From: Podospora anserina
Lineage: Eukaryota
DNA length: 64,000 bases
Reading direction: 5' to 3'
Assembly: GCA_017654855.1 (NCBI GenBank)
Contig: CM030332.1
Location: forward strand, 1,116,001-1,180,000
The position numbers and the translations under genes are program-made. Each line of letters opens with the position of its first letter. Position 1 is the first letter of the stretch. Of the stretch, positions 44,201-50,309 are shown one piece after another. The notes beneath the pieces were generated by a model. That model searched no databases. It was given only the letters and a program-made list of their open reading frames with translations, and was not told where the DNA came from.

Positions 44201-47200
44201 TGTTGTGAAACCAAGCATTGTAGCTGGATCAGAGGAAGCTAGTTCCTGTGTTTTTTGACCAGGCCCCATTTCCAGTGCTTGATGCTCATCAGGGCCGTGA
44301 TAAAGATTGCTAAAATCCGACACGCCTCGGGCTGTGTTCAGTTCGTCCTATAACGAAGGCCTGTAAATGTCAGTTGGGGAAACTAAAATTGGCTCGGATT
44401 TCAACGGCCATTTAGCAATATGAGATTGGTCGCTGGGTGGTGTAATGTGTGGTGTCGAACTTGCGTTTACTTATCCTCTGCGTCAAGGAAATGTGTAGTT
44501 TGTCAAACGCACTACTATCTGGGCTGGATGGCTGGAGCCAAGACCTGGTGGATCCCGGGTCGAGCCCCGGATATTTATGTGGAGCTTTGCGAGGGCAAGG
44601 GTTCTCCAGGTTGTGGGGTTTGGGCGGACACCTCGCACCAGAAAAATTGCGGGAAAGTTGACGACGGACGACCCACGACCAAGTACCTACATATCGAATG
44701 AATCAAAGTACTGTAGGATCATACTGTAGTCAAAAGTGAAGCTTAGACACAATGCATTGCAGGTATCTCTGCAAGCCACAAACTGCCTAAGGGTGTTTGT
44801 CAGACCGTGCTCCTTCTCGATTCGCTTCTGTGCATAGAAAGATCGGGTATGACTACCCCGCGGTTTTGTGTTCACCATCATGTCTTAATTCTCCCGTGAC
44901 ACCCTCCATTTGCGTGGCCCAGTCTGACTGGCAGCGGCTTGCGTAGATCTGCTGTACCCTTCTGACGTCTCCCTGATTTGACGATGGCTATGATTGAGGG
45001 TGGCAGTCGGTCCTACCTGATCTCAATGAGTGGGTTTGCCGTTTGGGAATCTTATAGCAATTTCTTTTGACATCAGACATACCCACTATGAGGTTTGACG
45101 TGGACGCTTGAGGCTCTGACATTCCTTTGCCAAGTTCCCGAGTCAAGGAAGAGCCCCCGGATGCCCTATGGGTGGGTCAAACGGTGTTCCTTTCAAGGTG
45201 TGGGGTTGTGGGAGCGTGGCGGGTCGAAAGCAGGAACCAAAATTGGCGTCAATCAACGTTTCATGCTGCAATGGATGGGCAGCACTTTTACACTATAGGG
45301 GATCCATTACGACGTGCCTGAAGGCCTTTCAATCCCACCTACTCTCACATGCGACAGTCGTTCTTGTAAGTTGAAGCCGACTGTCAGTTGAATTGTTGGC
45401 ATACTGACCGATTGGAATTGCATCGCGGCAGCCACGTGAAGGGCACCAAGCAGTAGAATCCAGTTCACTTTGATTCGTCCAACATTCAGGCCCTGGTCCA
45501 TGCCACTGACATTGTCAAAATGTAACCGAGCTGGACAATGCATTTGTCATGTCGAGTCAAAGCCAATGAACTCGAAGAGGTCACAGTCCGGAACCGTGGT
45601 TCTGTTACCAAACGGAAAGGGCGGGGTCAGAGCTCAACCAACATAACCACCGGCACCGCGTTTTTCTTCTAGCATACCCCATGATCCCCAACTCCCGCAC
45701 TTATCATATCAAGTCAGGGCCTCATCTTCAGGTCATCAAAGACTGCGTGGAGCATGGAAGTCTGCTAAACTAGTGTACATCGATCGGATTGGTAGAGCTG
45801 ATTGGTCAAGATTAGTTTCCGCCATTTTGAAAAGGTTTCCGTATCAGATCCGTTTCTGTGAATGGCACCCCATTCACGACACCATCAGAAATAGGATGGG
45901 CAATTTACAAGCCGAAGCATGTCGAGCGGGTATTAATCTGGATGGGAGCGGGCGGCCAGCAACGAGACCGGTGAGGTATGCACCTCGACGACTGGACGTA
46001 CAACCAACAACCGGGCAGTCAGTTGTCTGTCAGTTATCACATCGAGCTTATCCCCTGTCCTCCCGTCGCATCCAATGCCGCTCTTTTTCCCACCCTCGAT
46101 GGCCTGACCAGATGACCGCTTTTGCACCGCGCATTGAGGTTCCATCGACATCCATGCACGCACTTTGCAACTTGCGTTATCTCGAGACTCACGGACCCGG
46201 CTTTGCTGCCCCATGTCCGCCCAATTTTTGGGTGGTGCTCATTAGCCAAGCACTGGTCAGCTTGCGCCTTCCCGGCGACCGGTGAATCACTTTTCTTCGC
46301 CCATCTCCTCCAAAGCTCACACCGATTCCCTTCCTTTGCAAGTAAACGAGACAATCGCATTCAACCCCCGACAATTCCAGTCCCCACCGCGCAACAAGGA
46401 ACCTTCAACCCCGTCCGGCCCGTAAGACAACACGCGTGTATTACCGCGAACCATTGGGTGGCACAGGACAACTCCCGCCGCTGAGCCTTGACCGGTGCCC
46501 TCACCGACTTGCCCATCAGCATCACGCCCCTCACGCCCAACCTCGACTCCACTCCCGTCCAGGAGCCTCTGACCTGCCCCGTCAACAGGGCCCATATCGC
46601 CCGCGCTGCTGGCGCAATTGCGTGCCGTCACCAGATTTGTGGACCTGAGAGGAGCCGTACCATAGTCTCGGCTACCACACCCTGGCCAGCTCCTCTCTCT
46701 ACGACATCCTTTCTCTGACAGCACGGCGCCGTCTGAAAGCAACGACGACGGCCAAAAGACGGCACTAGCGGGCGAGGGAACACACGCAAGATTTCCCCTC
46801 CAAGGCTGTTTTTGCGCAGATCTGGGGATGGTGGTAACCGAGCAGTAGATTGTGTTCCCCCTTTCTGCTTGCTTGCCTGCCGACCGAGGATCTTGGCTTG
46901 GATTCATGCCCCTCTCCTCCTCGCGAGCCCCCTTGTCACCCCTCCTCGCCTCGTGTCGTTCCGACTCTTCCTGACCTAGTTCCGTCCGCAGCCGGCTGCA
47001 CCGACTGCTGCTCAGTTGTGTCTTGCTGCAGCTCCCCATCGGTCGTACGGGGCTGTCGTCCCCGTGGCGATGGCGCTTTTGTGAGACGCCTACGTTTCTG
47101 CGTCTTGCAACCCCTCTCACCACCAGTTCGAGGGCCACCTGCCTGACCTTGGGGCCGGAGCAGGTTCCCCCTTGGTTGCCTTTGTGCGCCGCCGGGTGCT

Positions 47201-47342
47201 GCTGCTTGCTCACATTCCCAGAGTTTGTGCTTCCCTGCTTGCCAGGGTCGTATCCACACCGGTGTACATACCGACCAAGTACACCCTAGGTCTCTATTGA
47301 CCTCGGATTGCCCAGTGGAATACCTCTTGATTGTCCTTCACC

Positions 47343-50309
47343 ATGGTAAGAAGACTGTCTCTCGTTGTTGAGCTCGCTGCCGGCAGGCTGCATGGTGGCA
47401 GTCACCGACTTCTGCCTCTGAACTTGGTCTTCCCTGCACATGTCCCCGAGCCATGTCGCCGCCTGCTTTCACCTTGACCTCACATTGGTACTCTACACGC
47501 CAAACACATCTCCACATATACGCTCCCCTTTCACTCGAACCAACTCACCTTGATCCCCTACACCCCTCCCTCACGTCACTCACATATTTCCTCCCCCTCA
47601 GCCCCCTCCGAATTCCTACTATGACCGGGGCTTGCTCACCGGCCCTTACCTTGTGAACCACCACCTCATTGTGCTGCCCCCCTTTTTGCTTTCGTTGTAC
47701 AGCCAGTTGATTATTTTTTTTTGTCTAGAACAACGCCGTCAGAAAACGGAGGGCTCATCCCTTCGAGGATCCCCCTTCAGAGCCAGTGCTCCAGGATTGG
47801 ACTTATTCCTCAGCGGAGCCACCTGCTCTATTCCACCTCAACACCAAGCTTGATCAGTACACGCCGCAAGACTTCTCCAACATATACGTTGAGCTTCCGC
47901 TGGAGGACGTGTGGTGTCATCCTCCGCTACGCGAGAGCGCCGCTTCCTATCTCAATGTGTCTGTGAACCAGGTCGAGAACTGGTTCGACTCGAGCAACTG
48001 GCACAACCCGCACAAGAGACAGCGTCTCAGCACCCCAAATCTCCTCATGGCGCCCAATTCTGGAGATCTTATCGGCCAGGGTGACCACGAGAAGTCACCT
48101 CTCTCGGGCGACGGCTGGCCTGGATGGACCAGCCAGAGGCTGGCGCAATGTTTTTCGAGCCTTTGCTCCCCATGTGACCCCGCACCAAGTAAGTTTTCAC
48201 ACAATCACGCCTGGCCCTCCGTCTCCTTGGTGTGGTGCTGATGCTGCCTCCAGGCTATCGGCCGCTTCCTCAGACACCAGTCTATGAATATGGCCCAGCC
48301 ATGGCGCCCGTCCCTGGGCCCAGTATGGCTCCCATTTCACCGCAGGAGCGCACCCTGACGATTTCGCCCTCAAATCAAGCAAGTGTTCTCGCTCGTGATG
48401 ATCCGGCAGCCATGGCTCGATATTACCCGCCTCTGCGGCCGACACACGTAGTAGGCATGCCGCCATCCACAACAAGGGAGGAGATGGTCTATCCGGTTGC
48501 GCCGCCGGGGCTTGGAGATGGTCTTCATCACGGACCTAATTACACAGCTCCAGGATCGCACTGCCTTATGGGCTCCACCATCAAGTCCGAAGCTCTTTCT
48601 GTCATGTACGGTGGGGGGGTTGTCACCACACAATATGGCGCTTCAATTGGAGAACTGGCTGGTCTTCAGGACCTCTACGGCCTGGGTCTCAAGGACGACA
48701 CTGATAGGCCAGATGGCCCAAACTTTGACACGTATCCTGCGCATAGAAACGTCCCGGCAAGACGAGGTGCATTCAAGGATCAAGAGCTGAGAGCCAAGAC
48801 CGCGCAGACCAGGAAGATGGGCAGCTGTATTCGATGCAAGATGCAGCGCATCCGTGTGAGTCTTTTCCCTTGATCTACAGATCAGTTCAGTGTAAAACAC
48901 GTGCTAATCCTCACCAGTGCAATCTGGACCCTGAAAACGAGAATGGTCCGTGCATCGCCTGCAGAAAGGTCAACGTCAGCACCAGAATTTACCGGCTCAA
49001 CTGCTTGCGGTTGAAGATTGTCGACTGCAAACTCTACAAGCCGGGCCAGGTTCCTGGTCATGAGTGGACCAGCCGCTGGAAGGACAGCGTGCTCGATGAT
49101 ATCGAGGTCTGGGCTCCTGGAGAGCAGAGGACGATTCGTGTGACGGAAGGATACACAAATATGTTTGTGGAGCTGCGCGTCAGGGAGTTTGTCCCTCAGC
49201 CAGGAGACAAGTTGGAGAGAACCTGGGTGGACAAGAACGGCGTGAAGCAGAGGCGAAAAATCCCGCCGTTCGCCATTGTCGATCTCGAGGATGCGAAAAA
49301 CTCTTACAGCCGCTACATCAAGCGCGGTCTGGAAAACTGCTGCATGCGCCTGCTGGGTGCTCGGGACAAACTGCTTCACAGAACATACTTTTTCGCCATC
49401 AGCAGAGCCAGAGATGACCGAGACCATTCCTTGACGGAATCAGAACGGGGTCTCTTGGGACTCACTCTTGACCTTTGGATGACGGCACGGCTCACCACGA
49501 AGACGCTCGAGATTATCGGGAACGAGAGGCTTGGCATGCCCCTGGACTTGATCAACGACCCGACCAATGACATGCACCGGAAGACGCCTGTCCCACCTGT
49601 GCTCGGGGCCCAGATCGATTCGTTCTTGATACACCAAATTCTGTCACACCTCCGCCGAAAGACGCTTGAAGAACTTCAAAAGATGACACAGGAGAAGAAG
49701 CAAAAGACATGGCTGACTACCTACCTTGTGACTTTTATTTTACTGCACAACATCGGTCTTGTTACGAAGCATGATGCAAATTATGCCAGGAAGCACGGGA
49801 TGAAGGTTGGTGACCCCGCTATCTGCAAGTCATGGGTTCCTGGAACTGACAAGATGTGATCACAGAGACATTGGGCGAGAGAAGACAGCGTCAAGGAGTA
49901 TGAAATGGGTTAGTCCATGCTCATGACCAGTTGTGATGGGTAACACTGACGGCGCGTTAGGAGCCAACACCCTGCTTGCCTACTTCCACTACTGCAATAA
50001 GGGCATCTACCCTTTCTCTGCCGAGTGCAGGGATGCCGACCTTCGAAGTCTGGCAGAACTTGATGACGATGCCATTGAGCTCGTTCGCTACACCAGAAAG
50101 TACGTCGCGGAGCATAGTAAGTACTTCCACAGACTTCCATCTGTCTCGTGGAACCAGCAGCTGACCCCCGGTGTGTAGAAGCGCAATGGGAAAGCATGTG
50201 GAAGAACGAAGGCGATTGGAAGGATCAGGGCCTCAAGAAGTACGAGCATGAGTACTATTATGTGAGCCAATTGTTCGAACCGAACTGGCAGCCACGCAAC
50301 ATGCCCTAA
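47343..50309 (+). CDS. Zn(II)2Cys6-like transcription factor with an N-terminal homeodomain-like segment; exons 47343-47345, 47729-48188, 48254-48855, 48918-49805, 49866-49908, 49961-50116, 50179-50309
   Basis: All introns are GT-AG and frame-consistent. Spliced cluster CIRCKMQRIR|CNLDPENENGPCIAC..C. The first two exons are less certain than the rest. Confidence 0.8.

What the first reader, a model, noticed from the sequence alone, without database searches (positions are those of the whole stretch)
47858..48030. Degenerate homeodomain fused upstream of a Zn2Cys6 cluster
Seen: exon 2 of the transcription factor encodes YTPQDFSNIYVEL...HPPLRESAASYLNVSVNQVENWFDS. Counting back from WF (48/49), residues fall at the homeodomain consensus spacing: R31, A35, L38, V40, Q44, V45, with Y/T at about 8/9 after one inserted residue. 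Known: canonical homeodomains need N51 and R53 for base and backbone contact. Here these are S and N, with a basic patch (HKRQR) slightly downstream. Inference: a homeodomain fold kept for protein interaction or altered DNA recognition, spliced in frame to a Zn2Cys6-like domain. I do not recall this two-domain architecture being described, and gene predictors starting at a later ATG would miss it.
Basis: partly seen in the sequence, partly recalled or inferred. Interest (0 to 1): 0.7.

Follow-up and report, generated by a model that had tools for sequence, protein, structure and literature searches.

The report
Fungal regulator's false homeodomain
The stretch is a real coding exon of a fungal zinc-cluster gene regulator that the reference annotation misses, but its homeodomain look is peculiar to this one lineage: in relatives the same stretch is a small greasy two-helix motif, present once or twice between two nuclear-import-like signals, that lacks the marks of a homeodomain.

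Summary
The exon is real. Spliced contigs in 4 of 4 runs join an ATG-only first coding exon (47343-47345) to exon 47729-48188 and use junction 48188/48254, giving a 760-aa Zn2Cys6-type protein. It is Pa_1_3130 of the Podospora anserina complex, annotated 170 residues short. The homeodomain spacing is there as stated, but it is not a homeodomain. In 102 homologous units from 90 orthologous proteins W48 and F49 occur 0 times, N51 twice. The family profile does not match homeodomains (hhalign 0.2%), and AlphaFold gives no helix 1. The block is the second copy of a conserved ~22-residue hydrophobic helix-turn-helix hairpin: one copy in Xylariales, two clean copies 27-30 aa apart in 12 proteins, first copy decayed in Sordariales. 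It lies between two basic patches and is followed by a fixed Met. Best reading: a protein-contact hairpin inside an N-terminal import module, not a DNA reader; the WF is a lineage-specific substitution. Homeodomain plus Zn-cluster proteins are already catalogued (35 of 191 genomes, Shelest 2017). What is new is modest: a corrected gene model and an unnamed motif.

The parts
46254..46397 (+). Conserved non-coding block near the 5' end of the long leader
   Evidence: blastn 75% over 145 nt to L013, 68% over 150 to L022; contigs of X1 and X4 begin at 46102-46290, X2 and X8 run past 46000
47343..47345 (+). Start codon; the only coding bases of exon 1
   Evidence: joint 47345/47729 in 4 of 4 runs; same ATG|GTAAGA layout in 9 of 16 related loci examined
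47346..47728 (+). Intron 1 (383 nt) with conserved blocks at about 47381-47408 and 47570-47584; also present unspliced in contigs
47729..48188 (+). Exon 2 (residues 2-154), holds the whole N-terminal module
47741..47752 (+). First basic patch (residues 6-9), NLS-like
   Evidence: aligned segments were cut at this patch, so its conservation is partly by construction; present in 64 of 121 proteins together with the second patch
47849..47914 (+).
   Evidence: aligns with copy 1 of orthologues; only a 5-residue helix 59-63 in the model
47921..47986 (+).
   Evidence: helices 66-75 and 80-89, pLDDT 75-85; family unit profile built without Podospora finds it
48011..48028 (+). Second basic patch (residues 96-101), NLS-like
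   Evidence: found behind the last unit in 88 of 90 proteins
48047..48049 (+). Met108, position-fixed Met behind the second patch; possible second start
   Evidence: Met within 15 residues in 57 of 63 proteins against 38% expected; weak context, C at -3 in 8 of 8 loci
48254..48855 (+). Exon 3: low-complexity linker and first half of the Cys6 cluster
   Evidence: pLDDT under 50 for residues 91-313
48826..49004 (+). Zn2Cys6-type cluster, C-x2-C-x6-C-x10-C-x2-C-x13-C (residues 346-384), split by intron 48856-48917
   Evidence: PF00172 15.9 bits, cut-off 21
48918..49805 (+). Exon 4
   Evidence: 209 homologues
49287..50306 (+). C-terminal helical domain (residues 479-760, exons 4-7: 49866-49908, 49961-50116, 50179-50309), Upc2 ligand-binding-domain-like
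   Evidence: best two of 48,161 chains are Upc2 domains, Z 8.5 (rmsd 5.4, 191 aligned) and 7.0 (3.4, 149); below the tool's trust level for helical bundles

Best explanation
The gene encodes a 760-aa Zn2Cys6-type transcription factor conserved across Sordariomycetes. Its first ~100 residues form a module: basic patch, one or two copies of a ~22-residue hydrophobic helix-turn-helix hairpin, second basic patch. SHOWN: gene structure, conservation of the hairpin, tandem duplication, absence of homeodomain residues in relatives. PREDICTED: two helices at 66-75 and 80-89. INFERRED: the hairpin is too hydrophobic to stand alone and has no basic second helix, so it packs on a partner (its tandem copy, another subunit or another protein) rather than reading DNA; the two patches are nuclear-import signals which the hairpin positions or masks; DNA is read by the Cys6 cluster; the C-terminal domain may sense a lipid-like ligand, as in Upc2. 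In the Podospora line copy 1 decayed, about 8 residues were lost, and Leu/polar became Trp-Phe at the end of copy 2, which happens to recreate the homeodomain WF spacing.
For: Ala at positions 34/35 in 94-95% and hydrophobic residues in 85-99% of 102 units at 30, 31, 38, 40, 42, 45, 46, 48 (positions 30-38 are partly fixed by the seed pattern). Homeodomains of this genome are mostly polar at 42 and 46. Mean 0.79 K/R and net charge -0.19 in the second helix; none in the window. Two clean copies 27-30 aa apart in 12 proteins, modelled as four helices. Podospora nests inside Sordariales on a tree of 72 proteins, all other sampled units lack WF, so WF is derived by parsimony. The profile over 1.84 billion proteins returns 29 hits: 24 family members, one MerR/HTH_17 repeat protein, four unrelated repeats, no homeodomain. 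Upc2 model of a masked N-terminal NLS: passage read in PMC12926077.
Against: No binding partner, localisation or mutant is known; NLS consensus is recalled, not tested. The two-copy model has pTM 0.37 and no significant fold match. The Upc2 likeness is weak. The full-length model used an alignment of orthologues and leans to the family fold. N-termini of the closest relatives (Triangularia, Apiosordaria, Cladorrhinum) are missing from their models, so the date of the WF change is unknown. The hairpin is eroded in some orthologues (P0021, P0039, P0053, P0094, P0118, P0119 gave no ungapped unit).
Confidence: 0.6

Rival explanations
1. Degenerate true homeodomain fused to a Zn cluster: descent from a homeobox.
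For: Spacing as stated; weak homeobox hits; 76% over 22 columns; Atlas first hit a homeodomain cluster at 0.75, under the chance level of 0.8.
Against: W48 and F49 in 0 of 102 units; family profile against homeodomains 0.2%; not among 9 PF00046 matches of the genome at E<=10; no helix 1; collinear with orthologues, so no insertion is needed; the seven P. anserina homeobox genes have orthologues in N. crassa and M. grisea (passages of PMC3360767).
Confidence: 0.04
2. Convergent mimic: in the Podospora line the decayed tandem repeat now folds as a homeodomain-like three-helix bundle, with residues 46-58 as helix 1.
For: The window has homeodomain-like residues where the family does not (R31, V45, W48, F49: 1, 4, 0, 0 of 102), and a fitting hydrophobic spacing at F50, I53, L57 (sequence). 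It tops 94 scored units on the homeodomain profile, 12.0 against 4.7 bits.
Against: pLDDT 36-47 and no helix over residues 41-58; no N51, R53, no basic residue in helix 3; equal score on MerR-type HTH.
Confidence: 0.07
3. The units are leucine-rich nuclear export signals between two import signals, a shuttling module.
For: Hydrophobic residues at offsets 0, 4, 8, 10 in 56 of 102 units (80 if Tyr is allowed), a spacing I recall as one NES class; flanked by two basic patches.
Against: Such spacing is common in amphipathic helices; the near-invariant Ala-Ala and turn suit a packed hairpin; the window itself has Glu at offset 8 and Trp at 10.
Confidence: 0.12
4. The hairpin is a remnant of a DNA-binding HTH or ribbon-helix-helix/XRE-type domain and adds DNA contact with the basic patches.
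For: Only structured outsider hit is a MerR/HTH_17 repeat protein; weak Pfam HTH hits for the window; RHH and XRE proteins recur among fold hits.
Against: All fold hits E>=2 or Z<=3.6; second helix neutral to acidic; the outsider's E-value sums 7 repeats.
Confidence: 0.1
5. Two isoforms: intron 1 retention or a start inside intron 1 removes the whole module and translation starts at Met108.
For: Fixed Met in 57 of 63 and in 19 of 22 further fragments; intron 1 sequence in contigs of 4 of 4 runs; conserved blocks in intron 1. Not exclusive with the best explanation.
Against: First ATG has A at -3, second C at -3, in 8 of 8 loci; several ATGs lie before Met108 in the retained form; contigs cannot show starts or levels.
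Confidence: 0.2

Closest known systems
Homeodomain (PF00046), e.g. PAH1-PAH7 of P. anserina (Coppin et al. 2012, PMC3360767; passages read)
   Same: Helix-turn-helix spacing A35, L38, V40, V45 and, in Podospora only, W48-F49.
   Different: No N51/R53, no modelled helix 1, no basic recognition helix; orthologues have Leu at 48, polar at 49, hydrophobic at 31, 42, 46; unit is tandemly repeated.
Dual-specificity factors Zn_cluster+HD and Zn_cluster+C2H2+HD (Shelest 2017, PMC5415576, Table 3; passages read)
   Different: Those carry a detectable homeodomain-like domain; this protein does not.
Zn2Cys6 factors with a Upc2-type C-terminal domain (PDB 4n9n, 7vpr)
   Same: Cys6 cluster plus helical C-terminal domain whose best two fold matches are Upc2; N-terminal NLS-like patches.
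   Different: Cluster lies mid-protein with a 13-residue last spacer; fold match weak; no sequence match to PDB; ligand unknown.
Generic bacterial HTH (MerR/HTH_17, XRE) and ribbon-helix-helix proteins
   Same: Two short helices joined by an N/G-hydrophobic-S/P turn with Ala in helix 1.
   Different: No significant profile or fold match; second helix is not basic.

Membership tests
Homeodomain PF00046 | Score above the Pfam cut-off (22.9 bits) | tested here: not met
   No PF00046 hit for exon 2, the 67-aa stretch or the full protein; absent from 9 genome matches at E<=10.
Homeodomain PF00046 | W48-F49 conserved in the family | tested here: not met
   Present in the Podospora complex only; 0 of 102 units in 90 other proteins.
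Homeodomain PF00046 | N51 and R53 (positions recalled, as in the finding) | tested here: not met
   S89 and N91 in the window; N51 2 and R53 13 of 102 units.
Homeodomain PF00046 | Three-helix bundle with helix 1 | tested here: inconclusive
   Model has helices 59-63, 66-75, 80-89 and pLDDT under 50 for 1-56; a prediction leaning on the family alignment.
Homeodomain PF00046 | Helix-turn-helix at helices 2-3 | tested here: met
   Helices 66-75 and 80-89 at pLDDT 75-85; shared with all HTH kinds.
Homeodomain PF00046 | Sequence-specific DNA binding by helix 3 | not testable with these tools
   Needs a binding assay.
Zn2Cys6 cluster PF00172 | Six cysteines C-x2-C-x6-C...C-x2-C...C | tested here: met
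   C346, C349, C356, C367, C370, C384 after splicing; five of them (all but C370) at 90% or more among 76 aligned proteins.
Zn2Cys6 cluster PF00172 | Score above the Pfam cut-off (21 bits) | tested here: not met
   15.9 bits; atypical spacers; sources still name relatives Zn(2)-C6 proteins and list PF27566, for which no name appeared in my Pfam scans.
Upc2-type ligand-binding domain | Fold match of the C-terminal domain | tested here: inconclusive
   Z 8.5 and 7.0, ranks 1-2 of 48,161, under about 13 advised for helical bundles.
Ribbon-helix-helix or XRE-type HTH | Significant profile or fold match | tested here: inconclusive
   Foldseek E>=2, Z<=3.6, on a model of pTM 0.37.
Zn_cluster+HD dual-specificity factors (Shelest 2017) | Detectable homeodomain-like domain with a Zn cluster | tested here: not met
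   Homeodomain not detected in Pfam; the paper used InterPro-type models, which I did not run.

The most novel reading that the evidence does not exclude
A non-homeobox tandem hairpin has, in the Podospora line alone, converged on a homeodomain-like three-helix fold (gaining R31, V45, W48, F49 and a helix 1 from the decayed first copy), inside a module that an ATG-only exon and a conserved second Met can switch on or off: a homeodomain look-alike caught arising from an unrelated repeat.
Probability: 0.07. Interest if true: 0.65.

Novelty: new variant of a known kind. Interest (0 to 1): 0.22.

Why it matters
As it stands: it corrects the gene model of Pa_1_3130 by 170 residues (many orthologue models are cut the same way, because the first coding exon is a bare ATG), and names a small conserved N-terminal motif in an unstudied Sordariomycete regulator that can be tested by deletion in Podospora or Neurospora. 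It is also a clean case of one sequence mimicking a homeodomain that its orthologues disprove. It does not add a new domain architecture.

Tried and rejected
Pfam scans of exon 2, the full protein, 17 homologues and 21 module stretches: no homeodomain. Word-based search with residues 30-105: only the Podospora cluster; a search for short relatives of exon 2 found none, so close Podosporaceae N-termini stay unseen. ESM Atlas: 0.75 for the window part, no usable hit for the two-copy part of P0058. PDB by profile: nothing for the full family; designed toroid repeats and E>=0.19 hits for the module. Foldseek: no match at E<=0.001 for either model. Homodimer job for residues 42-100: no verdict, score 0.01, alignment not used; no evidence either way. 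Five paralogous loci of the genome: no clear unit in the stretches fetched (best 4.3 bits on the unit profile, 9.0 on the two-copy profile over 19 residues). Rfam on 45800-47800: nothing. No holder was on record as RNA; the four runs laid are guessed RNA, judged spliced by their GT..AG joints. Literature: six locus tags found no relevant paper, PF27566 none, architecture terms only general papers (listings seen); MGG_11561 appears in expression tables of PMC4192604 (2 of 3 places seen; four supplements unreadable). bioRxiv supplements were closed and may hold expression data for Pa_1_3130. Earlier findings of this scan: none.

Full report
Gene and organism. The window is part of a 35.96-Mb, 9-contig genome. 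Exon 4 is 99% identical to a Podospora pseudopauciseta protein and has 209 homologues at E<=0.001, of which 120 were listed; the 90% cluster holds PODANS_1_3130 of P. anserina. Contigs of four runs from four studies, guessed to be RNA, skip six GT..AG introns; five joints are in 4 of 4 runs and one in 3 of 4. The exons 47343-47345, 47729-48188, 48254-48855, 48918-49805, 49866-49908, 49961-50116 and 50179-50309 give 760 aa without a stop, identical to stored protein P0130; the 590-aa reference model starts at residue 171. The first coding exon is the ATG alone. The same ATG|GTAAGA layout is seen in 9 of 16 metagenome loci examined (about 7 distinct; 4 of the 20 loci were left out for lack of upstream DNA, 6 of the 16 are cut short, 1 gave no match). 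So the exon is real, coding and in frame with the Cys6 cluster at residues 346-384.

The homeodomain likeness in the window. The numbering in the finding is right. The likeness is weak but above chance: homeobox chains are 4 of 5 PDB hits at E 0.43-1.5; hhalign against seven homeodomain stretches of the same genome gives 76% over 22 columns; the stretch is the best of the window's six frames, 8.6 against 7.2 bits. True homeodomains left out of that small profile score 10.8-53.2 bits, the window -1.7 to 13.2. Pfam gives only weak generic HTH hits and PF00046 does not list the place among 9 matches. The Atlas hit to a homeodomain cluster, 0.75, is under chance level.

What orthologues show. A plain scan for W-F/Y before the cluster in 121 proteins finds it at this place only in the two Podospora entries. 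64 of 121 proteins keep both basic patches, and the block aligns as I-L-x-Q-A-A-x-x-L-x-x-P-x-x-x-L-L-x-L. A unit profile built without Podospora finds the window's block. Of 143 family proteins screened, 90 gave 102 ungapped units; most of the rest are models that start behind the module. At homeodomain numbering: W48 0, F49 0, N51 2, R53 13, R/K31 1; A35 97, L38 99, L45 94, L48 83 (31-38 partly fixed by the seed pattern, 45-53 not). On a tree of 72 proteins Podospora groups with Triangularia and Apiosordaria (support 1.0) inside Sordariales, so WF is derived by parsimony; the models of those nearest relatives lack the N-terminus, so the date is open. The family profile against homeodomains gives 0.2%. 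Against 1.84 billion proteins it returns 29 hits: 24 family members, one MerR/HTH_17 repeat protein, four unrelated repeats, no homeodomain.

Structure. AlphaFold with 76 sequences gives helices 59-63, 66-75 and 80-89 at pLDDT 75-85 and under 50 for residues 1-56: a helix-turn-helix, no helix 1. A two-copy module folds as four helices with uncertain packing, pTM 0.37; fold searches give only non-significant ribbon-helix-helix, XRE and designed-repeat hits. Eight positions of the unit are 85-99% hydrophobic, two are Ala, and the second helix is neutral to acidic. The C-terminal domain's two best matches are Upc2 domains at Z 8.5 and 7.0, suggestive only.

How it most likely works. Shown: gene structure, conservation and duplication of the hairpin, flanking basic patches (second patch behind the last unit in 88 of 90). 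Inferred: the hairpin buries its greasy face on a partner and positions or masks two import signals; the Cys6 cluster reads DNA; the C-terminal domain may sense a ligand, by analogy with Upc2, whose N-terminal NLS is exposed on ligand loss (passage of PMC12926077). I put this at 0.6. Rivals: export signals 0.12, DNA-binding HTH remnant 0.10, convergent three-helix mimic 0.07, true homeodomain descent 0.04. A separate, compatible idea (0.2) is a short isoform from Met108: Met is fixed behind the second patch in 57 of 63 proteins and 19 of 22 further fragments, and intron 1 is present unspliced in 4 of 4 runs, but the first ATG has the stronger context in 8 of 8 loci.

Known context. Shelest 2017 lists Zn_cluster+HD in 35 and Zn_cluster+C2H2+HD in 64 of 191 fungal genomes (passages), and locus L005 of this genome has a Cys6 motif, a homeodomain and C2H2 motifs in one frame. 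Coppin et al. 2012 found seven homeobox genes in P. anserina with orthologues in N. crassa and M. grisea (passages). I found no paper on this gene or motif in the searches; that library lacks most subscription journals. NLS, NES, Kozak and homeodomain position rules are recalled, not from a call.

Verdict. Real exon, useful gene-model correction, unnamed small motif; not a homeodomain and not a new architecture. Interest 0.22.

Noticed in passing
window 46254-46397: Non-coding block conserved at 68-75% in L013 and L022, about 1 kb before the ATG near where two runs' contigs begin; no Rfam match. Promoter or leader element.
   Followed up: partly
window 46043-47728: CACCG/CGGTG is 2-3 times enriched in the leader and intron 1 of the window, L013 and L022 (11, 12, 10 against 4.9, 4.7, 3.0; p 0.012, 0.005, 0.002; motif chosen after seeing the alignment). 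Could be Zn-cluster half sites, perhaps autoregulation.
   Followed up: partly
window 46000-47345: Leader of at least 1 kb with upstream ATGs (46828, 46906, 47070 and five more before 46290); the stretch round 47070 aligns with L013 and L018.
   Followed up: partly
window 47346-47728: Intron 1 has conserved internal blocks and a TTGA(C/T) branch-like site; intron contigs in 4 of 4 runs.
   Followed up: partly
window 47712: T in the window, G in three of four runs; G matches the related loci better.
   Followed up: no
L005 (G000:C4:1689809-1692976): Cys6 motif, homeodomain and two C2H2 motifs in one 1053-aa frame: a genuine homeodomain plus Zn-cluster protein of this genome.
   Followed up: partly
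L031-L035: Five more distant paralogues of the Cys6 plus C-terminal-domain family, 26-32% identical, without a clear N-terminal hairpin.
   Followed up: partly
window 46317-47285 (-): 322-aa open frame antisense to the leader; not examined.
   Followed up: no
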